Shown here in pieces: positions 21,623 through 30,791 of a DNA stretch of 31,193 nt; position 1 is the first letter of the stretch; every line of letters begins with the position of its first letter. The stretch covers positions 1 to 31,193 of the forward strand of contig CAZRAS010000001.1 in NCBI GenBank assembly GCA_964598045.1, in the 5' to 3' direction. Origin of the DNA: an uncultured Clostridia bacterium. Its GTDB lineage: Bacteria > Bacillota > Clostridia > Christensenellales > Borkfalkiaceae. Under the pieces are notes generated by a model that saw only the letters and a program-made list of their open reading frames with translations, had not been told where the DNA came from and did not search any database. A program made the position numbers and the translations under genes.

Positions 21623-23389
21623 TCACGAGAAACTTACGGAAATCGTGCCGTCTGCGTTCGTCCAAGTACCGGTTGCATCGCAATTGGCGAAAGGTCCGAA
21701 ACCGTCCACGTGCAATTTCGCACTGCCGTCTGCCAACAATTCCAAAGTACCGGTAATCGCTTCATTCATGCCGCCCAAACCGGCTAACGTATACGAATAG
21801 GTGGAACCTGCCGTTGCCGTTGCTTTCAAGGTACCCGTCAAATTAGAATTATTATTCATGAAGTTAATTCCAACGCTGATAGATGCAGCACCTGCCGTGA
21901 AGGAAGGAGTCGTTGTAGGCGTAATGGCCATATTGCTGCCTCCGCCACCGCCGCCTTGGTTGTTGCCGCCGCCTTGGTTGTTGCCGCCGCCTTGGTTGTT
22001 GCCACTGCTAGTGTTCTTCCAATTAGCATCCACTTCGGAATACAAGGAAGCTCTGCCGTTCAATTCTTCGACGGGCCGATAATCCCCTTCGTATGCGTTG
22101 GTCGCATCGAAGCTGAGGGTATACGTGCCGTCCGATTCTACGTGATAGAAACCTTCGCAAATAACGTCAGGGCAGTAATATACGCCTGCGTTCATTGAGT
22201 CCGTCTTGAAATACTGATATTCGATTTCCAATTCGAACGTGCCGTCGGCGAAGAAGTCGAGCTGGCCGAACAAGATGGGCGAGTTGCCGCTTCCGGGAGA
22301 TTTCTTCGGCGAAGCAACGATGTTGGAAGTACCTTTAATACGTACGTCGAAGGAGTAAATCGCACCCGTCTTCGCCGTGTATCCCTTTTCCGTCCACAAA
22401 GGATAAGCTCTAAACGTACATTTATTATTGTTCGTGGTCGACGAACCGAATTCAACGCCGTCTTCGAGTTTCACTTCCGCATAGGATTTATCGGTGGGCA
22501 CGTCGGTAGGTTTGAATCCCGTAAATACGAAGGGAAATTCAAACTTATTGAAGATGCCGCAAGTGTAGCTCGTACCCTCACTGATCATGTTCTTCTTTCC
22601 GTCTACGGAAATCTCGCCTGCGCTCATCGTCATCGTGGGATTGGTAACGTACTTTTCATCCCATTGACAATCGAGGGAAATCGAATAGTCTGCCGTGGTT
22701 ACAGGCAACGTAGCGGTGATTTCCGTGGAGGAAGAGGTCAATTTGCCCGTATCCACGCTCACCTTCGCATTCGTCGACTTATTGGTCAACGTAACCTTGA
22801 CGTTGGTGGGATATGCGGTCTTTCCGTAATCGAAGCCTTTCAACGTAAGTGCGACAGTTCCGCCGTGCACGTTCCAAATGTACTGATTGGAAATGTTGGC
22901 TTTTTCGACTGCGCCTTTCACCGTATAAGTCGTGAAACCTGCATCCGATTCTTCGAGCGTGCCGCCTTCTGCGGGATAAGCCACGACACGGACGAACCAA
23001 TCCTGATAGGAATATTCCTGTTTAAGATCGGTCATGTTGCCGGTGTAGTTTTCACTGCCGTCCTCTTGTACGGTAACGCTGCCGAGCGCGTCCAACGAAC
23101 CGATCGTTTCATACACGGAAACAACGTAGTGATCTGCGTTTGCCACCTTATTAAAGGTATATTTTCCGTTTTCGATGCTGATCTCAGGGGCATCCAACGC
23201 GTTTTCTCTCTTCGTCGTCGTGCCGCCGTTGATCGCGTCATTGTAGTTTTTGAAGTTTTCGATTACCGTTTTAATGGAATCGAAATAGATTTTGGATTGT
23301 TCGCTCAAACGAGAGCTGCATCCCGCAAGCATCGGTACGCATAAGCAACCTGTGATTGCGAGTGCGATAATTTTCTTAGATTTTTTCAT
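21623..23389 (-). CDS. Lipoprotein with an Fn3/Ig-like N-terminal region, G/N/Q linker and duplicated beta-rich module
   Basis: Signal peptide with lipobox LAG-C (Cys24); Fn3-like LDAP..ADHYVVSVY..VRVVAY segment; last gene of the GH3 operon. Confidence 0.8.
   Translation of the reverse strand: MKKSKKIIALAITGCLCVPMLAGCSSRLSEQSKIYFDSIKTVIENFKNYNDAINGGTTTKRENALDAPEISIENGKYTFNKVANADHYVVSVYETIGSLDALGSVTVQEDGSENYTGNMTDLKQEYSYQDWFVRVVAYPAEGGTLEESDAGFTTYTVKGAVEKANISNQYIWNVHGGTVALTLKGFDYGKTAYPTNVKVTLTNKSTNAKVSVDTGKLTSSSTEITATLPVTTADYSISLDCQWDEKYVTNPTMTMSAGEISVDGKKNMISEGTSYTCGIFNKFEFPFVFTGFKPTDVPTDKSYAEVKLEDGVEFGSSTTNNNKCTFRAYPLWTEKGYTAKTGAIYSFDVRIKGTSNIVASPKKSPGSGNSPILFGQLDFFADGTFELEIEYQYFKTDSMNAGVYYCPDVICEGFYHVESDGTYTLSFDATNAYEGDYRPVEELNGRASLYSEVDANWKNTSSGNNQGGGNNQGGGNNQGGGGGGSNMAITPTTTPSFTAGAASISVGINFMNNNSNLTGTLKATATAGSTYSYTLAGLGGMNEAITGTLELLADGSAKLHVDGFGPFANCDATGTWTNADGTISVSFS
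21948..22001. repeat. 3 x 18-bp perfect in-frame tandem repeat encoding (NNQGGG)3
   Basis: ccgccgccttggttgttg repeated exactly three times. Confidence 0.95.
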
Positions 23390-23391
23390 GA

Positions 23392-23832
23392 TTAGTTCTC
23401 CTTTCCCTTAAAACAAGAGATGATGCCGCAAATACAAGCGATCAAACCTACCACGATGATAATTGCAGGCAATACGGGACCGCCTTCGGAGTTGAAGAAG
23501 TTGAACGTACCGAACAAAACGCCGTTCTGGGAAATGTTCCCCCACGTATCTGCCCATACGTTGTAGCTGTTGGTGATGAAAAGTCCCAAACCGAACGCTG
23601 CGCACAATTCGCCGGCAAGCCCGAACCATGCCGTCACTTTATTATACGCAATCGCAGGGATCACCCAAAGAACCGCACCGATTCCCAACGTAAGGATAAC
23701 TGCGATATCAAAATACTGGCTATACATACTGCCGTGGATAAAGGCGAGAACTGCCGTTACCACTGCCAACAATGCTGCGAGCAAAGTGGGTGCATTACTT
23801 TTTTTAGTTACTTCTTGTACACGTTCTTTCAT
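23392..23832 (-). CDS. Small 4-TM membrane protein of the GH3 operon
   Basis: Four hydrophobic helices; TAA-TC-ATG junctions on both sides. Confidence 0.82.
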   Translation of the reverse strand: MKERVQEVTKKSNAPTLLAALLAVVTAVLAFIHGSMYSQYFDIAVILTLGIGAVLWVIPAIAYNKVTAWFGLAGELCAAFGLGLFITNSYNVWADTWGNISQNGVLFGTFNFFNSEGGPVLPAIIIVVGLIACICGIISCFKGKEN

Positions 23833-23834
23833 GA

Positions 23835-26690
23835 TTATTTCCCCCTTGCTTTATTTTTTCTTTCGTCCTTCTTTTCGAATGCAACCGCACAAGCGATCGT
23901 ACCCGCAAGACCTACTACAAAGAGCACTGCAACAACTACATTCGCAACCAACACTGCCATTTCCCAAGCGGGAACGACTTTGACAATTCGTGCACCGTTA
24001 CCCAAACCGTTCATGGCCGCACTCTGCGTCATAACGTAAAGGTTACGTTTTGCCGCAAGACGCATGCACTGAAGGATATATCCGTCGCCGCCTTGGATTG
24101 CTTTCAAAATACGATCTGCGTTTGCACCTGCAGAGTCGCAGCAGCTATAATCCATACCTGCAACCAATTCTTCCAACGTATTGTTGTAGTAACCGGTGTT
24201 TACGTAACCGTCGGAGGTAACGTGACCCTTGAAGCCCCATTCGTTACGAAGTACGGTGGTCATCATAGGCGCATAGTTCTTACCGAGCTGCGTACCTACA
24301 CGGCCGGTGGTAGCCATAACGCTGAGTGCGCCGCCGTCAAACGAACCTTCGAACGCTCTCAAATAAATTTCACGCAAAGCTTGTTCTTCGACAAACACCG
24401 TCAAACCGGTACGATAGGTTTCCTGATCGTTACAGCACATATGTTTTACACAAATGATGCCGCCGACTGCCTTAGCTGCTTTACATTCATAATAACCGAC
24501 GATAGACGAAAGGTTTGCGTCTTCCGACCAATACTGACGAATACGTCCGCCGTAAGGAGTACGATGCAAGTTGCCTGCGCCATACCAAATTTCATCCGTG
24601 CCCTTCAAGAATGCACAGAGTGCGGAATATTTACCGCGAAGTTCTGCCATTTCGGTGTTCCAAGTACGAGCGGTGGAAGGATGGCTGATAAAGGTGATTT
24701 TGCCGCCTGCCGCGTTCGTATCGTCGTCCCCTTTCGAGGTGCCGGGAACGTCCAAATCGGAGATAACGTTCTTCGACTTAGAGTCGGTCATCGTTGTACA
24801 AAGTTGTTCGATCGTAAGCTGATCAAGGAATTTATTCCAGATTTCGTCGTCATCGAAGTCGACGTCTACCATGTCGGAAAGTTTCAATCCGTTATCCACG
24901 CCCTGCGTAAAGCTGTCCACGCTGGGAGCGTCTTCGGGGGTTTCGTAGTAGTAGTTGGAAAGTGCGTCCATCATCTGTTTGGTTGCCGTCAACTGCGTCG
25001 CAACGGGCCAAGTACCCTGCCAATCGTTACGAGTCATATAGGTGTATTCGTAACCGTCATAGTAGTTAAGACTTGCATCTTCGAAAACGTTTTCTACTTC
25101 ATAGCCTGTCTGGGTGGAAACGCTATACGTAGTTTTATCGATTTCGGACTGCGTCCACTTATGAACGAGTTCCTTATTGCCGTTTGCGGTCATGCCGTCT
25201 GCCGTCGAATATCCCTTTGCTGCCAAGATATTGTTGAGGGCATCGTGTGCGCCGTTACCGAGGGCGAGATAGTAATCGCCTGCGCTGAGGATATACGTAC
25301 CTGCGCCGTTCGTATCATAACTTGCAAGATAATATTCACGTACGTCTACGGTATAATCCTTGCTTTCGCCGGGTTGCAAAAGATCGGTCTTGGTGTATCC
25401 GACCAAGTTCACGGAAGCTTTTTCAACCTTGTTCTGAATTTCATACGTGCCGTAAGGGGTCTGTGCGTACACTTCGACAACGTCTTTACCTGCTACGTCG
25501 CCGATGTTCTTCACGTTAACCGTCATCACGTATTTCTTGTTTTCGGAATCGAACTTCACGTTTTTAATCGTCTGTTCGAAGGAAGTGTAAGAAAGACCGT
25601 AACCGAACGAGAAGCACATTTCATCCGAATAATCCCATGCAGCGCCGTCGGTGGAACCGTTGGTACCGTTTGCGTTTCCGTTGCCCATAACGACGTCTTC
25701 GTAACGGGTTTCGTAATACTTATACCCAACGTAGATACCTTCGGAATAAATTACGTAGTAACCGATGTTCTTTACGTTGTTGATCTTGTCGTATTCGCCC
25801 ATTTCGTCGTAGTTGCTCCACTGATAGGTGTTATCGTTTGCATTGACGATTGCGGGAGAGGAAAGGGAGTTGGAAGCATACGTATCTACCGTTTTACCGG
25901 AAGGATTTACTTTACCGGAAAGACATTCCGCAACACCCTGACAACCGTAGTCGCCGAAGTGACCTGCAAGAACGCATGCGTCTACGCCGTATTTATCCAA
26001 GAAATCGAGTTCCATCGCGAAGTCGTTACCGACGATCACGATGATCTTACCGAGTTTGCCTGCGTTTTTTAATTCGTACAGGCTGCTCATCATCGTTTCT
26101 TCGGAAGCCGTCAACGCCAAATAATGACGACCGTTATTCATGAATTTCGGGTCGCTGCCTTCGCCGCCGTCTCTCGAGAACGTAACGATGGCAACGTCGT
26201 CGTAACCGGTTGCAGAACCTGCGTCCGCTTCTTTCACGATGGTGGGATTTACATTAGCCGCGCCGAATTCGGACTGCATTGCTTCGAGCAAAGAAATAGG
26301 ACCGAATTCCAAATTATTGCTACTGTTGCTGTGATTGATGTTGCCCGTCGTGCCCGATCCGTAAAGAGTGATTTTGGATCCGCTCTTAAGAGGCAATGCG
26401 TTGTTTTTGTTCGTCAACAACGTAACGGCTTCTTCCGAAATCGTGATGTTTGCTTTTGCGGCATCTTCATACGCCGCATTCAACGCCTTCGAATCATAAC
26501 CGTATTCATTTTCCCAATAAATCGCGAATTGACCGTCGTCTCCGCCGATTTTCTCTGTTTCGGCTATACCTAAGTTGGTATTGATCCATGTTGTGTTGCC
26601 CAACGTCAACGTCGTCAATGATAAGCAAAGCATCAAAACCAATGACATCGCAGACGTAAAGCCACGAAAGATGTTTGTGAGTTTTTTCAT
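23835..26690 (-). CDS. Membrane-anchored, domain-permuted glycoside hydrolase family 3 (GH3_C, Fn3-like, GH3_N)
   Basis: N- and C-terminal TM helices; RDGGEG acid/base loop; VNPSGKTVDTY; YSEGIYVGYKYYET; GKDVVEVY; NLHRTPYGGR; KH..NDQE; WGFKGHVTSD nucleophile. Confidence 0.92.
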   Translation of the reverse strand: MKKLTNIFRGFTSAMSLVLMLCLSLTTLTLGNTTWINTNLGIAETEKIGGDDGQFAIYWENEYGYDSKALNAAYEDAAKANITISEEAVTLLTNKNNALPLKSGSKITLYGSGTTGNINHSNSSNNLEFGPISLLEAMQSEFGAANVNPTIVKEADAGSATGYDDVAIVTFSRDGGEGSDPKFMNNGRHYLALTASEETMMSSLYELKNAGKLGKIIVIVGNDFAMELDFLDKYGVDACVLAGHFGDYGCQGVAECLSGKVNPSGKTVDTYASNSLSSPAIVNANDNTYQWSNYDEMGEYDKINNVKNIGYYVIYSEGIYVGYKYYETRYEDVVMGNGNANGTNGSTDGAAWDYSDEMCFSFGYGLSYTSFEQTIKNVKFDSENKKYVMTVNVKNIGDVAGKDVVEVYAQTPYGTYEIQNKVEKASVNLVGYTKTDLLQPGESKDYTVDVREYYLASYDTNGAGTYILSAGDYYLALGNGAHDALNNILAAKGYSTADGMTANGNKELVHKWTQSEIDKTTYSVSTQTGYEVENVFEDASLNYYDGYEYTYMTRNDWQGTWPVATQLTATKQMMDALSNYYYETPEDAPSVDSFTQGVDNGLKLSDMVDVDFDDDEIWNKFLDQLTIEQLCTTMTDSKSKNVISDLDVPGTSKGDDDTNAAGGKITFISHPSTARTWNTEMAELRGKYSALCAFLKGTDEIWYGAGNLHRTPYGGRIRQYWSEDANLSSIVGYYECKAAKAVGGIICVKHMCCNDQETYRTGLTVFVEEQALREIYLRAFEGSFDGGALSVMATTGRVGTQLGKNYAPMMTTVLRNEWGFKGHVTSDGYVNTGYYNNTLEELVAGMDYSCCDSAGANADRILKAIQGGDGYILQCMRLAAKRNLYVMTQSAAMNGLGNGARIVKVVPAWEMAVLVANVVVAVLFVVGLAGTIACAVAFEKKDERKNKARGK

Positions 26691-26757
26691 GTCTTCCTCC
26701 TTTAGCTGGAAATTTTTTTAAGCGAGCCACCCTTTCTCTCGCCTTAAACTCTTGAGT

Positions 26758-26786
26758 ATTATAACATAGAAAAACTTCACTTTCCA
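26758..26786 (-). promoter_or_regulatory. Activator-type promoter of the GH3 operon
   Basis: Extended -10 TGtTATAAT (26763-26758) with a weak -35 TGGAAA at 17 nt. Confidence 0.65.
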
Positions 26787-26838
26787 TAACTTTTCACAAA
26801 CGACAAAAAAATAGAAACCAATAGAGAGCTCGTAGAAA

Positions 26839-26895
26839 AAAAAGTACCGTTCGTGTCCGAAAGATAAAAAACTATCGGTACGAACGGTACTTTTT
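26839..26895 (-). terminator. Long hairpin, likely terminator of the HK-LytTR unit
   Basis: 16-bp perfect arms AAAAAGTACCGTTCGT / ACGAACGGTACTTTTT; U8 on the minus strand. Confidence 0.7.
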
Positions 26896-26909
26896 CCGTA
26901 ACAAACGGA
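26880..26909 (-). promoter_or_regulatory. LytTR-type direct-repeat binding site
   Basis: TCCGTTTGT-N12-ACCGTTCGT; both boxes match the LytTR consensus [TA][AC][CA]GTTN[AG][TG] at 9/9 with the canonical 12-nt spacer. Confidence 0.65.
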
Positions 26910-26959
26910 AGTATGCAATTTTTTTTGAATTATTCGCTCATATTTTTTTTACTATTTCA

Positions 26960-29026
26960 CTAATCGATCACGGTCATGCCGTTATCTTCAAACCAAGCGA
27001 GGAATTCCTCCTTCACCTGCCGCAATCTTGCACGCCCGACGGGAATTTGCTCTCCGGTGCGCATTTCGATGATCAATTCGAAACGAATGAGGGAAATAAA
27101 GCCGCAATTGACAAGGAAACCTTTATGACATCGAATAAACCCTTCCTCCTTCAACTTCTCCTCCAAGGAATCCATTGTCGAACGCACGATCACGGTGTCT
27201 TGCTTATTCATATGCACGATCTGGTCCTTTTTGCTTCCCTCGATGTACACGATGTCTTTGATCGGCAAAAGGATCATGCCCTCGCCCGGAACTTGCAAAG
27301 AGATCGTCCGAGAAATATTGTCCTCTTTTTTCAACCATTCTTCGAACACGGACGCAATGTCCTTTAAGAACATGCTTTTCCGTACGAACCCGAAAGGATG
27401 CACGCTGAACGCATCGAATACTCGATCCTCTCGATTGGAAACGAAAATGATATCCGGTTCTTGATATTTTGCTCGAATTTTTTTCGCAAGCGTAATGCCG
27501 TCCATATCAGGCATATCGATATCCAAAAACAGGAGCGCGTACTTCTTTTTCTCCAATGCACGCAGCAATTCCTTTGCGGAAGAAAATCGATCGATTTCCC
27601 CGATGCACTCCTTTTGTGTCAAAATATCCTTTACGGAGCCTGCAATCACCCGTAAAATCATGTCCTCGTCATCGCAAATGCCTATTGATATTTTCGCGCT
27701 CATATACCCCCCCCGTTCCAATTGTTCATTTTCTGCGTTTTTCTTTCCTAAATATAACGATAAATGGAATTTTCGATCCTGAACGTTGATTTTCAATGTT
27801 CCGTTATATTTTTTCACGACCGAACGAATAATCTTCATTCCGTAACCGTGTACTTCATGATTCAGCTTCGTCGTGGGAATATGCGAACTGATTTTCCCTT
27901 CCGTGAATTTATCGGTGGCGTTGACGCATTGAATCAGGAAATTATTGTCCTTGTATTTCAAATTCAATTCCACCGTCTTATTCTCCATTTTCGACGCCGC
28001 TTCGATTGCATTGTCCAAAATATTCGTCAGCAAACTGCATAAATCCTTATCCTCAAAGGGCATTTGCGGCGGCACGAATATTTTATAATCGATCCTCACC
28101 CCCAACGAGTTTGCTCGTTTAATTTCAAAATTCAAAATATAATCGATGACGTAGTTTCCGCAAAGAGAAAACGGAAGCGCATCGTAAAGCTCGGTCGAAT
28201 ATTTCTCCAAATATTCCTTCAACTCCTCCGTTCTTCCCTCGTTCACCAGATAGGACATGAACGTCAAATGATTTTTCATGTCGTGACGGAGCTCTTTAAT
28301 CTTCTCGATTTCGCTGTGCGCAATCTCCATGACGTAATTTTCTTTTTCCTGTTTGAGATAAAGAATATTCAGCTTGGTCTTCTCGTCATACATTTTCGAA
28401 ATGCTATAATACAAATGAAAGGACACCAGTTCGATGACGACAAATCCGATGTCGATATAAAACCGAACATTTCCCGTACCCAAACTATGCTCGTGCTCGA
28501 ATATGTGAATGCAGGAAATCAAAATAATCAATGCACTGCAATATTTGGGCGCACTGCCGAATTTTTCCAGTCGCAAAAGACGGATATACGACGGAATCCC
28601 TACAAGCATTACGATCTGTACGGCGGTCGTAATAAAATTTTTCATTTCGATTTCAGCGCCTGAAATCGTACCGAGCCAAGATGAGATTGAAATACTGGAC
28701 ACAAAAACGGCATAATATAAAAATCCGTACACCGCACGCAAATCCCATGGAAGTTTACTTCGAAAAAGAGCATACAATAAAATGATGCTCGGGATGAGCA
28801 CGGATATTTTCACCGTCCAATCGAAATATTTTTCGACCAATCCCGCACCCATCGTCAAAACCAACCATACAACGAAAAAATCGACGGCTCGCCCAATGAC
28901 GTCCCGTCTATTCTTTGTCTTAGGTGCAAGAATGAGCAAAACCCCGATCACATAGGCAATTTCCGTCAACGGAAACGCAATGCCGTACTGCATTTTCACG
29001 TAATGCGTGACAAAATATTCCCACAT
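26960..29026 (-). CDS. In-frame fusion of an AgrC/VirS-like GHKL sensor kinase and an AgrA-like REC-LytTR response regulator (internal RR start at 27703)
   Basis: Six to seven TM helices, ELRHDMKNHL H-box, NILDNAIEAA, HGYGMKII; then ICDDE, FLDIDMP, FIRCHKGFLVN. Junction is a G8 tract at 27707-27714. Confidence 0.88.
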   Translation of the reverse strand: MWEYFVTHYVKMQYGIAFPLTEIAYVIGVLLILAPKTKNRRDVIGRAVDFFVVWLVLTMGAGLVEKYFDWTVKISVLIPSIILLYALFRSKLPWDLRAVYGFLYYAVFVSSISISSWLGTISGAEIEMKNFITTAVQIVMLVGIPSYIRLLRLEKFGSAPKYCSALIILISCIHIFEHEHSLGTGNVRFYIDIGFVVIELVSFHLYYSISKMYDEKTKLNILYLKQEKENYVMEIAHSEIEKIKELRHDMKNHLTFMSYLVNEGRTEELKEYLEKYSTELYDALPFSLCGNYVIDYILNFEIKRANSLGVRIDYKIFVPPQMPFEDKDLCSLLTNILDNAIEAASKMENKTVELNLKYKDNNFLIQCVNATDKFTEGKISSHIPTTKLNHEVHGYGMKIIRSVVKKYNGTLKINVQDRKFHLSLYLGKKNAENEQLERGGYMSAKISIGICDDEDMILRVIAGSVKDILTQKECIGEIDRFSSAKELLRALEKKKYALLFLDIDMPDMDGITLAKKIRAKYQEPDIIFVSNREDRVFDAFSVHPFGFVRKSMFLKDIASVFEEWLKKEDNISRTISLQVPGEGMILLPIKDIVYIEGSKKDQIVHMNKQDTVIVRSTMDSLEEKLKEEGFIRCHKGFLVNCGFISLIRFELIIEMRTGEQIPVGRARLRQVKEEFLAWFEDNGMTVID

Positions 29027-29057
29027 AGATAAACAAGTTCCCCCTTCCTTTTTTTCG

Positions 29058-29086
29058 ATTATAGCATAAAAAGAAAAATATGTCCA
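29058..29086 (-). promoter_or_regulatory. sigma-A promoter of the HK-LytTR gene
   Basis: TGGACA-N17-TATAAT with extended TG. Confidence 0.75.
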
Positions 29087-29321
29087 CTGTTTTTTGTTAA
29101 AAATTTGACGATTTGTGAGACAAAATATCTTTCGATATCAAGAATATTTTTCCTTTTTCTCGCCCATAAATTATTTCCGTATGATCGAAAATAGAAAAAA
29201 ACACCGTCCGTATGTTTACTTTCATACGGACAGCATTGCCTCTCTTTATTATGAATCGTGCGATTCCAGTACCTGCGTATTACGCCATGAAATCACGTAA
29301 ACGACGTGACGGCACCACCTT

Positions 29322-30791
29322 TTATTCTTCTTCGTTCTGCTGTTCAAAATATTTTTGAATGTACGCAACCAGTTTTGAATCCTCCTGAATTTTATAGGGG
29401 CCGTCATTCGTCCCGTCGTCCGTATATTGATTTGACCACACTTCATAGATCTCCTCATAACTTGCGGTGCGAAGGTCAAGTTTCAAATCGTACTCCTCGA
29501 TCGGCGTATCGGCACCGTTTTGAAGATCCATCCTATAAACAACCATTCCCCAGGTGTTATCCCACCAACCGACGGAAGCAATCTTATAATTCCAAATCGT
29601 CCAGCCCATTCCGCTTTGATCGTAAACGTCCAAAAACTCCATCCATGCGTCCTCGTCGTCAAAGAAGGTGAATTCTCCCATAAGTTTCGGAACGTCGTAG
29701 TCGGCAAACGCCAACGTCGCGTACATATAGTCATAGAACAACCAGTTGGGCAACGTACTCGAATTCCAGTTATACAAATGATATTGATACAACACGTTTT
29801 CCCAACCATATTTATCGGGATCGGGAAGAGAACCTAAATCCCAAACGCCCTCGATGGAAATGACGTGTTCGGTGTCCACTTCACGAATGGCGTCGTACAA
29901 TTTATCCATCACCTTCCATTGTTTGGAACCCGTCCCGAGCTCGTAACGATTCGTCGGCTCGTTTACAAGGTCATAAGCAAGGATCGTCGAAGCGAGATCG
30001 GCACGTTCCGTCTTATAGTGTTCGGCAATGCTGCGCCAAAGATTGCACATAAATTCAATATATTCTTCGGTATCCCAGAAATCGATGTCGCGCGTACCGC
30101 TGTGTTCGAATCCGCTTTGTCCGCCCATCACGCCGTGCATATCCACGATGACACGCAAATCTTGCTTCTTTGCCATGGCAAGGAAGGTATCCAATGCCTC
30201 AAAATCGAGGGTAATGTCTTCAAAATTCCTCTCGCAAAGCTGCTCGTCCGTGGTTCTGTATCTGTCGTGCGTTGTCAAAAATGTTCGATAATACACGGGA
30301 ACACGCACCGTGTTCAAACCCATGCCTTTTATATTTTCAAAATCGTAATCGGTGCAATAGGAAGAATAATACGCATCATTCAACGCTTCGAGCTGTTCGT
30401 CCGTGAATCGCGAGGCAAGAAGCTCGTCCATTTCTTCTTGAAAGATTTCCTCGTATTCCTCGACGATTCCGTCCTCGTTTACCTTTACGAAAGAACCGTC
30501 TTCATTGTACAACGCCCCGATGGAATTCACCGTCATCCAACCTTCCGAAATAAAGAGATTGCCGAAATTGACACCCTTGATTTCAAAAAGATCTCCGTTC
30601 TCGTCATACAATGCCTTTCCGTGCGCGACCACCGTGTTCGCACCGCTTTCACGCCTGATTTCCGAAGGCACTTCATACGAATAGCCCACTCGATAAACAT
30701 GCCACCGCCCTACGAGCAATCCGGCGACAGCCACTATGCCCAAGACAGAGACTCCGACAATTTTCGAAACTTTTTTGATGATTTTTTTCAC
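29322..30791 (-). CDS. Membrane-anchored glycoside hydrolase family 5 (exo-beta-glucanase-like)
   Basis: N-terminal TM; GVNFGN..EGWM, NTVRVP, VDMHG..GGQSG, DLVNEP (acid/base), YQYHLY, MGEF (nucleophile); GTG start. Confidence 0.9.
   Translation of the reverse strand: MKKIIKKVSKIVGVSVLGIVAVAGLLVGRWHVYRVGYSYEVPSEIRRESGANTVVAHGKALYDENGDLFEIKGVNFGNLFISEGWMTVNSIGALYNEDGSFVKVNEDGIVEEYEEIFQEEMDELLASRFTDEQLEALNDAYYSSYCTDYDFENIKGMGLNTVRVPVYYRTFLTTHDRYRTTDEQLCERNFEDITLDFEALDTFLAMAKKQDLRVIVDMHGVMGGQSGFEHSGTRDIDFWDTEEYIEFMCNLWRSIAEHYKTERADLASTILAYDLVNEPTNRYELGTGSKQWKVMDKLYDAIREVDTEHVISIEGVWDLGSLPDPDKYGWENVLYQYHLYNWNSSTLPNWLFYDYMYATLAFADYDVPKLMGEFTFFDDEDAWMEFLDVYDQSGMGWTIWNYKIASVGWWDNTWGMVVYRMDLQNGADTPIEEYDLKLDLRTASYEEIYEVWSNQYTDDGTNDGPYKIQEDSKLVAYIQKYFEQQNEEE

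What the first reader, a model, noticed from the sequence alone, without database searches (positions are those of the whole stretch)
27695..27720. G8 homopolymer toggles a sensor kinase and LytTR regulator between fusion and separate genes
Seen: the minus strand reads GAA CGG GGG GGG TAT ATG AGC. With G8 the HK and RR are one 688-aa ORF. With G7 the HK ends ERGGI-TGA with the stop overlapping the RR start in the classic ATGA arrangement. With G9 the HK stops a few codons into the RR. The G-run also doubles as an SD for the RR ATG (27703). Established: AgrC/AgrA-type pairs are normally separate proteins, and homopolymer tracts mediate slipped-strand phase variation. Inference: either a phase-variable switch between a membrane-tethered hybrid and a free regulator, a recent fusion allele, or a one-base sequencing/assembly error.
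Basis: partly seen in the sequence, partly recalled or inferred. Interest (0 to 1): 0.72.

Follow-up and report, generated by a model that had tools for sequence, protein, structure and literature searches.

The report
One-base G-run slip fuses kinase and regulator
A run of eight G's at the join between a sensor-kinase gene and its regulator gene merges them into one reading frame in this genome only; relatives carry 9 or 10 bases there and keep two genes, so this is a one-base slip or assembly miscall at a slip-prone site, not an established fused protein or a shown switch.

Summary
The minus strand has G8 at 27707-27714, and 26960..29026 is one 688-aa frame holding an AgrC-type kinase (HATPase_c_5), a receiver domain and a LytTR domain.

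The fusion is a singleton. Every ortholog contig examined keeps two genes. The nearest strain (97.4% nt identity over 6.7 kb) has G9. A second lineage, seen in 8 runs, also has G9. A third has GAGAGGGGG (9 nt). In all three the 452-aa kinase ends 35 nt inside the regulator gene, in another frame. A fifth lineage has GA+G8 (10 nt) and an ATGA stop/start overlap. More distant orthologs have GGAGG-type ribosome sites and ATGA.

The run is the regulator's ribosome-binding site turned into a homopolymer. Its length drifts among lineages (8, 9, 10 nt), and all three frame states leave both proteins' domains intact. The window is one base shorter than its nearest relative.

I could not reach the source reads, so I cannot separate a real slip (about 55%) from a consensus miscall (about 30%). 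A quality check found no genes broken at homopolymers elsewhere in this MAG. Reversible, selected phase variation is untested (about 12%).

Modest interest.

The parts
27707..27714 (-). G8 homopolymer (C8 on the + strand). It is the last codons of the kinase tail and the Shine-Dalgarno region of the regulator. It is one base shorter than the G9 of the nearest strain.
26960..29026 (-). 688-aa fused reading frame (kinase + receiver + LytTR) as assembled.
27704..29026 (-). Kinase part (residues 1-441). It has hydrophobic N-terminal segments up to about residue 205, an H-box LRHDMKNH at 246-253, an N-box NILDNAIEA at 335-343 and a G-box HGYGMKI at 393-399.
26960..27703 (-). Regulator part (247 aa from its own ATG): receiver domain containing the motif FLDIDMPDMDG (residues 500-510 of the fusion), then a LytTR DNA-binding domain. 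It is 246/247 identical to the separate regulator P0126 of the nearest strain.
29058..29086 (-). Promoter-like site (TGGACA, 17 nt, TG-TATAAT; 11 of 12 matches) ahead of the kinase start. This is a consensus match only.

Best explanation
The G-run is the ribosome-binding site of the LytTR regulator gene, and it lies inside the unconstrained 3' tail of the AgrC-type kinase gene. In this group of gut Clostridia the usual GGAGG has become a long G homopolymer that is prone to slipped-strand changes.

Its length differs among related lineages (8, 9 and 10 nt), which puts the kinase stop codon in three places: at ATGA, 35 nt inside the regulator gene, or nowhere. The window carries the 8-nt form, a one-base contraction of the G9 seen in its nearest strain. 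That removes the kinase stop and gives a 688-aa kinase-receiver-LytTR frame.

I take this to be a real, recent slip carried by the sampled population. It would be tolerated because all catalytic and DNA-binding domains stay intact, and because the regulator keeps its own ribosome site and ATG, so a free regulator can still be made beside the fusion.

Shown: the anatomy, the singleton status of the fusion, the tract lengths in relatives, and purifying selection on both genes. Inferred: that the base count is real, that the regulator still initiates internally, and that the fusion is functional or neutral.
For: - All close kinase homologues among 5.8 billion proteins (61-91% identity) are 431-463 aa and kinase-only.
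- The 688-aa protein sits in a 90%-identity cluster whose 7 other members are separate regulators of 231-256 aa on 23 contigs.
- The nearest strain, L206 (97.4% nt over 6.7 kb; kinase 427/437 aa, regulator 246/247 aa), has G9.
- L207-L214 (8 runs) have G9. L022-24 have GAGAGGGGG. L039 has GA+G8 (10 nt) with ATGA. Contigs of four runs laid on the window show one extra base at the tract as their only indel in 801 nt.
- The other four indels between the window and L206 are all intergenic, and three of the four sit at homopolymer runs. Run-length change is therefore the normal kind of difference between these strains.
- pN/pS is 0.21 for the kinase and 0.09 for the regulator, so there is no decay.
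- Homopolymer quality check of the MAG: 43 of 204 long runs lie inside intact long frames. Of 9 candidate junctions, 7 were tested and none is a broken gene.
- Orthologs carry GGAGG/GGAGA at the position of the run.
Against: - The base count rests on one consensus contig of a fragmented MAG (218 contigs, 68% complete), and no raw reads were available.
- A G8/G9 run is the kind of site where consensus errors concentrate.
- The fused form was seen once among 24 contigs of the 90% cluster.
- Nothing shows that the fusion protein or a free regulator is made.
Confidence: 0.55

Rival explanations
1. Assembly or sequencing miscall. The organism really has G9, like its nearest relative, with a 452-aa kinase and a separate 247-aa regulator. 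One G was lost in the consensus.
For: The nearest strain and two further lineages all have 9 nt at this site. The fusion is unique to this contig. The MAG is fragmented and probably of low coverage. Long G runs are the classic place for single-base consensus errors (established knowledge). Another lineage shows the same sporadic pattern: 2 contigs with fused 465/466-aa forms against 6 contigs with separate regulators in one 90% cluster.
Against: No general homopolymer problem was found in this assembly: none of 7 tested candidate junctions is a broken gene, and 43 long runs sit in intact frames. There are no coding indels against L206 other than this one. Related lineages really do differ in tract length (8, 9, 10 nt), so a true change is not unlikely.
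Confidence: 0.3
2. A selected, reversible contingency tract. Slippage toggles the two-component system between three forms: ATGA-coupled, overlapping, and covalently fused. This would change kinase:regulator stoichiometry or tether the regulator to the membrane, and so change expression of the neighbouring glycoside hydrolases.
For: An uninterrupted G9 is kept in two lineages about 10% apart in nucleotide sequence. All three frame states occur among natural relatives. No state destroys a domain. The genome holds other long G/C runs in promoter-like spacers. Homopolymer phase variants of the related agr system are documented in S. aureus (PMC6686034).
Against: There are no within-sample length data. 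Every G9 lineage is G9 in all 9 contigs seen. Two lineages interrupt the run with A, which stabilises it. G/C runs of 8 are not enriched in the genome. The same data fit neutral drift at a site that tolerates all three frames.
Confidence: 0.12
3. An established hybrid kinase-receiver-LytTR protein: a one-polypeptide architecture conserved by selection.
For: The frame is open and all domains are intact. One-polypeptide sensor-regulators exist in other families (Bacteroides hybrid two-component systems; established knowledge).
Against: None of the ortholog loci is fused. In an exhaustive search of 1.84 billion representatives, only one of the best 150 hits spans both halves, and its own cluster is mostly separate regulators. 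The regulator keeps its own ribosome site and ATG.
Confidence: 0.02

Closest known systems
Agr phase variants of Staphylococcus aureus: poly(A) tract changes in agrA/agrC (Gor et al. 2019, PMC6686034; Traber & Novick 2006, as cited there)
   Same: Same protein families (AgrC-type HPK10 kinase, AgrA-type receiver-LytTR regulator). A homopolymer inside the operon changes length by slipped-strand mispairing and alters the reading frame.
   Different: In S. aureus the slip lies inside agrA, inactivates or delays the system, and reversion was measured (0.12% in one isolate). Here the run is at the gene junction, the slip fuses rather than truncates, no reversion or heterogeneity has been measured, and no agrB/agrD genes are adjacent.
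Overlapping ATGA stop/start junctions of two-component operons (translational coupling)
   Same: Orthologs at 61-81% kinase identity, and L039, have exactly this arrangement, with GGAGG-like sites 7-10 nt upstream. Such 4-nt overlaps turn into fusions or longer overlaps with a single-base indel.
   Different: In the window's closest clade the overlap is 35 nt (9-nt run) or abolished (8-nt run), and the ribosome site is a homopolymer.
Hybrid two-component systems of Bacteroides (sensor, kinase, receiver and AraC-type DNA-binding domain in one membrane protein, next to glycan-degrading genes); from my own knowledge
   Same: As assembled, this is one membrane polypeptide with kinase, receiver and DNA-binding domains, flanked by GH5 and GH3 glycoside hydrolases.
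   Different: Those are conserved architectures with periplasmic sugar-binding sensors and AraC outputs. Here the fusion is a singleton, the output is LytTR, and the relatives are split.
Bordetella pertussis bvgS poly(C) frameshift phase variation (Stibitz et al. 1989); from my own knowledge, not checked here
   Same: A G/C homopolymer in a sensor-kinase gene whose length change alters the two-component system.
   Different: There the frameshift truncates BvgS and switches the regulon off. Here no state truncates a domain.

Membership tests
AgrC/AgrA-type (HPK10 kinase + LytTR regulator) two-component system | GHKL ATPase domain of the HATPase_c_5 type, with an H-box histidine upstream | tested here: met
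   PF14501 E=3.5e-23 at residues 325-425. LRHDMKNH at 246-253, with N- and G-boxes present.
AgrC/AgrA-type (HPK10 kinase + LytTR regulator) two-component system | Polytopic membrane sensor at the N-terminus | tested here: inconclusive
   A simple hydropathy scan gives 5-6 hydrophobic segments between residues 16 and 205. No dedicated topology predictor was run.
AgrC/AgrA-type (HPK10 kinase + LytTR regulator) two-component system | Cognate regulator with receiver + LytTR domains encoded next to the kinase | tested here: met
   PF00072 E=1.3e-16 and PF04397 E=7.3e-19. The pair is adjacent in every ortholog locus.
agr-type peptide quorum-sensing locus | agrB/agrD (peptide precursor and processing protease) adjacent | tested here: not met
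   The neighbours are a GH5 cellulase and a GH3 enzyme. The small frames beside the pair have no Pfam hit. The GH5 - kinase - regulator - GH3 order recurs in several relatives, and the GH3 gene downstream in most. AgrB was not searched for in the whole genome.
Slipped-strand phase-variable (contingency) locus | Simple repeat whose unit number sets the reading frame or expression | tested here: met
   G8; the effects of G6-G11 were simulated.
Slipped-strand phase-variable (contingency) locus | Repeat length varies between closely related strains | tested here: met
   8 nt (window), 9 nt (L206; L207-214; L022-24) and 10 nt (L039). Each is a consensus contig, and two lineages have A interruptions.
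Slipped-strand phase-variable (contingency) locus | Length heterogeneity within one population, and reversibility | not testable with these tools
   No run holds the window (best share of words 0.11 and 0.07). Read laying gave only contigs of a relative.
Hybrid (fused) kinase-regulator protein | Fused architecture conserved among orthologs | tested here: not met
   No ortholog locus is fused. The cluster-mates are separate regulators. Only one spanning hit appears among the best 150 of 1.84 billion representatives.

The most novel reading that the evidence does not exclude
The G-run is a true three-state contingency tract at the kinase/regulator junction. Slippage would move the system between ATGA-coupled (7 or 10 nt), overlapping (9 nt) and covalently fused (8 or 11 nt) forms, none of which destroys a domain. 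The switch would tune signalling stoichiometry or membrane tethering of the LytTR regulator, and through it the neighbouring GH3/GH5 genes, rather than turning a gene on or off.
Probability: 0.12. Interest if true: 0.7.

Novelty: new variant of a known kind. Interest (0 to 1): 0.33.

Why it matters
If the base count is real, this is a natural example of how a one-base slip at an overlapping gene junction makes a one-polypeptide sensor-regulator from a classical two-component pair. It would also show that such a junction can sit in all three frame states in wild relatives without losing a domain.

That bears on how hybrid signalling proteins arise. If switching were shown, it would be a form of phase variation that rewires a system rather than silencing it.

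If it is a miscall, the lesson is practical: singleton fusions at G8/G9 runs in MAGs should not be annotated as hybrid kinases.

Tried and rejected
- **Raw reads.** Two run searches listed no holder with more than 0.11 of the sampled words, and no RNA holder. Read laying could only lay Logan contigs of the L022-type relative, so the tract-length distribution in the source sample remains unknown.
- **Source identity.** A contig of exactly 31193 nt (WRLS01000002.1 / Ga0099364_10002209, loci L071/L162) looked like the window. It has no blastn match to the window or to G000 and has 54% GC. The equal length is coincidence, and I name no source.
- **Close relatives in other collections.** Scans of JGI metagenome contigs and GTDB genomes gave only L039 as a close relative. 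Of the 123 other genomes of the genus, none has an ortholog; the best matches are 30-41% identical.
- **Natural fusions.** L055 and L122 looked like candidates but are regulator-then-kinase pairs in separate frames.
- **Homopolymer error test.** 9 candidate junctions where run length minus one would join two frames were examined, and 7 were tested. All 7 are complete neighbouring genes. C83, C119 and C133 were not tested.

Full report
**What is there.** On the minus strand the window reads GAA CGG GGG GGG TAT ATG AGC, with G8 at 27707-27714 and an ATG at 27703-27701. The frame 26960..29026 (-) is open for 688 aa. Pfam finds an AgrC-type GHKL domain (HATPase_c_5, residues 325-425), a receiver domain (450-557) and a LytTR DNA-binding domain (583-673). 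The kinase H-, N- and G-boxes and the receiver motif FLDIDMPDMDG are intact. The N-terminal 205 residues hold 5-6 hydrophobic segments. A promoter-like site lies ahead of the kinase start and a terminator-like hairpin after the upstream cellulase gene, so the pair looks like its own transcription unit. The neighbours are a GH5 cellulase upstream and a 951-aa GH3 enzyme downstream.

**Effect of run length.** With G7 or G10 the kinase ends ...ERGG(G)I, with its TGA inside ATGA. With G9 or G6 the kinase is 452 or 451 aa and stops 35 nt inside the regulator gene in another frame. G8 or G11 gives the fusion.

**Is the run unusual?** Not by itself. The 1.09-Mb assembly (218 contigs, 68% complete) has 8 G/C runs of 8 or more, four of them exactly 8, against an iid expectation of about 10 runs of exactly 8.

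**What relatives have.**
- In a search of 5.8 billion proteins, the 12 close homologues (61-91% identity) are all 431-463 aa and kinase-only.
- An exact look-up shows the 688-aa protein on one contig only. It sits in a 90%-identity cluster whose other 7 members are separate regulators of 231-256 aa on 23 contigs.
- I fetched 26 ortholog loci (plus L039), and none is fused. The GH3 gene follows the pair in most of them, and the GH5 gene precedes it in the closest ones.

Junction types seen:

| Lineage | Relation to window | Run at the junction | Kinase stop |
|---|---|---|---|
| Window | - | G8 (8 nt) | none: 688-aa fusion |
| L206 | 97.4% nt over 6.7 kb; kinase 427/437 aa, regulator 246/247 aa | G9 | 35 nt inside regulator; kinase 452 aa |
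| L207-L214 (8 runs) | about 90% nt | G9 | 35 nt inside regulator |
| L022-L024 | about 89% nt | GAGAGGGGG (9 nt) | 35 nt inside regulator |
| L039 | kinase 79% aa | GA+G8 (10 nt) | ATGA; kinase ends ...ERGGGI |
| Orthologs at 61-81% kinase identity | - | no long run; GGAGG/GGAGA 7-10 nt before the ATG | ATGA |

Contigs of four further runs laid on the window show one inserted base at the tract as their only indel in 801 nt. A kinase tree places the window with L206 (100/99), then L022. The junction type does not follow the kinase tree strictly: L207 pairs with ATGA-type L025, and L039 with ATGA-type L026. The 3' end of the operon therefore probably has a partly separate history.

**Reading.** The G-run is the regulator's ribosome-binding site, embedded in the poorly conserved tail of the kinase, and it has become a homopolymer in this group. 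Its length differs among lineages (8, 9, 10 nt), and all three frame states exist in nature. None removes a domain, and the regulator always keeps its own site and ATG. The window's state is a one-base contraction relative to its nearest strain. Both genes are under purifying selection between the window and L206 (pN/pS 0.21 and 0.09), so nothing suggests decay.

**Real or artefact?** I could not obtain reads. No indexed run holds the window, and the laid runs are contigs of a relative.
- *Indirect evidence for a real change.* The other four indels between the window and L206 are all intergenic, and three of the four sit at homopolymer runs. Run-length change is therefore the normal kind of difference between these strains. 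The MAG shows no general homopolymer problem: 43 of 204 long runs lie in intact long frames, and of 9 junctions where one base fewer would join two frames, the 7 tested are complete neighbouring genes.
- *Evidence for an artefact.* The fusion is a singleton in a fragmented MAG, at the kind of site where consensus errors concentrate, and three related lineages agree on 9 nt. An unrelated lineage shows the same sporadic pattern: two contigs with fused 465/466-aa forms against six with separate regulators in one cluster.
- *My odds.* About 55% real slip, 30% miscall, 12% selected reversible switch, 2% established hybrid architecture.

**Comparison with known systems.**
- The proteins belong to the AgrC/AgrA families, but the locus is not an agr quorum-sensing locus, because no agrB/agrD genes are adjacent.
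- The closest documented phenomenon is poly(A)-tract phase variation in S. aureus agrA. There the slip disables the system and reverts at a measurable rate (PMC6686034). An adenine insertion at the end of agrA is also the commonest agr frameshift across S. aureus genomes (PMC8768832).
- Here the slip lies at the gene junction and fuses rather than truncates.
- As assembled, the product resembles the one-polypeptide hybrid two-component systems of Bacteroides in layout and in its glycoside-hydrolase neighbourhood. It fails the test of conservation among orthologs.

**Verdict.** This is an ordinary mutational or assembly event at a slip-prone, frame-tolerant junction. The evolutionary lability of the tract, with three lengths and three frames among relatives, is the one feature worth a read-level check.

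Noticed in passing
G000 contig C121 3158-3167 and C89 4178-4187 (not in the window): Two G10 runs sit inside promoter-like spacers. C121 reads TTGACG, then 9 G plus 8 nt (a 17-nt spacer), then a TG-extended TATAAT. C89 reads TTGACA, 9 nt, G10, TATAAT (a 19-nt spacer; G8 would give 17). They are candidates for spacer-length control of promoters.
   Followed up: no
G000 contigs C21 8463-8474 (C12), C107 1105-1113 (G9), C173 208-215 (C8): Further long G/C runs outside long reading frames. Runs of 10 and 12 exceed the iid expectation for a 1.09-Mb genome.
   Followed up: no
window 21623-30791 and loci L022, L026, L028, L201-L207: The gene order kinase - LytTR regulator - 951-aa GH3 enzyme is kept in orthologs down to 61% kinase identity, and a GH5 cellulase precedes the pair in the closest ones. 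This points to the hydrolases as the regulated targets.
   Followed up: partly
L030 3859-4601 and L029 19-2151: In contigs of one relative, the regulator is split into 142 + 105 aa and an ABC transporter into three frames. These are frameshifts or contig errors in those assemblies.
   Followed up: no
proteins P0130 / P0277 (other lineage, 32% identity): Two contigs encode a 465/466-aa protein with HATPase_c_5 + receiver + LytTR but no membrane part. Six contigs of the same 90% cluster encode a separate 247-aa regulator. This is the same sporadic kinase-regulator fusion pattern in another lineage.
   Followed up: partly
kinase tree of 16 orthologs: The junction type does not track the kinase tree. 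G9-type L207 is sister to ATGA-type L025, and 10-nt L039 is sister to ATGA-type L026. The regulators of L207-type contigs are 95% identical to the window's while their kinases are only 82% identical. This suggests recombination within the operon.
   Followed up: no
L071 / L162 (WRLS01000002.1 = Ga0099364_10002209): A termite-gut MAG contig has exactly the window's length (31193 nt) but unrelated sequence (no blastn match, 54% GC). This is a coincidence that could mislead attempts to name the source.
   Followed up: yes
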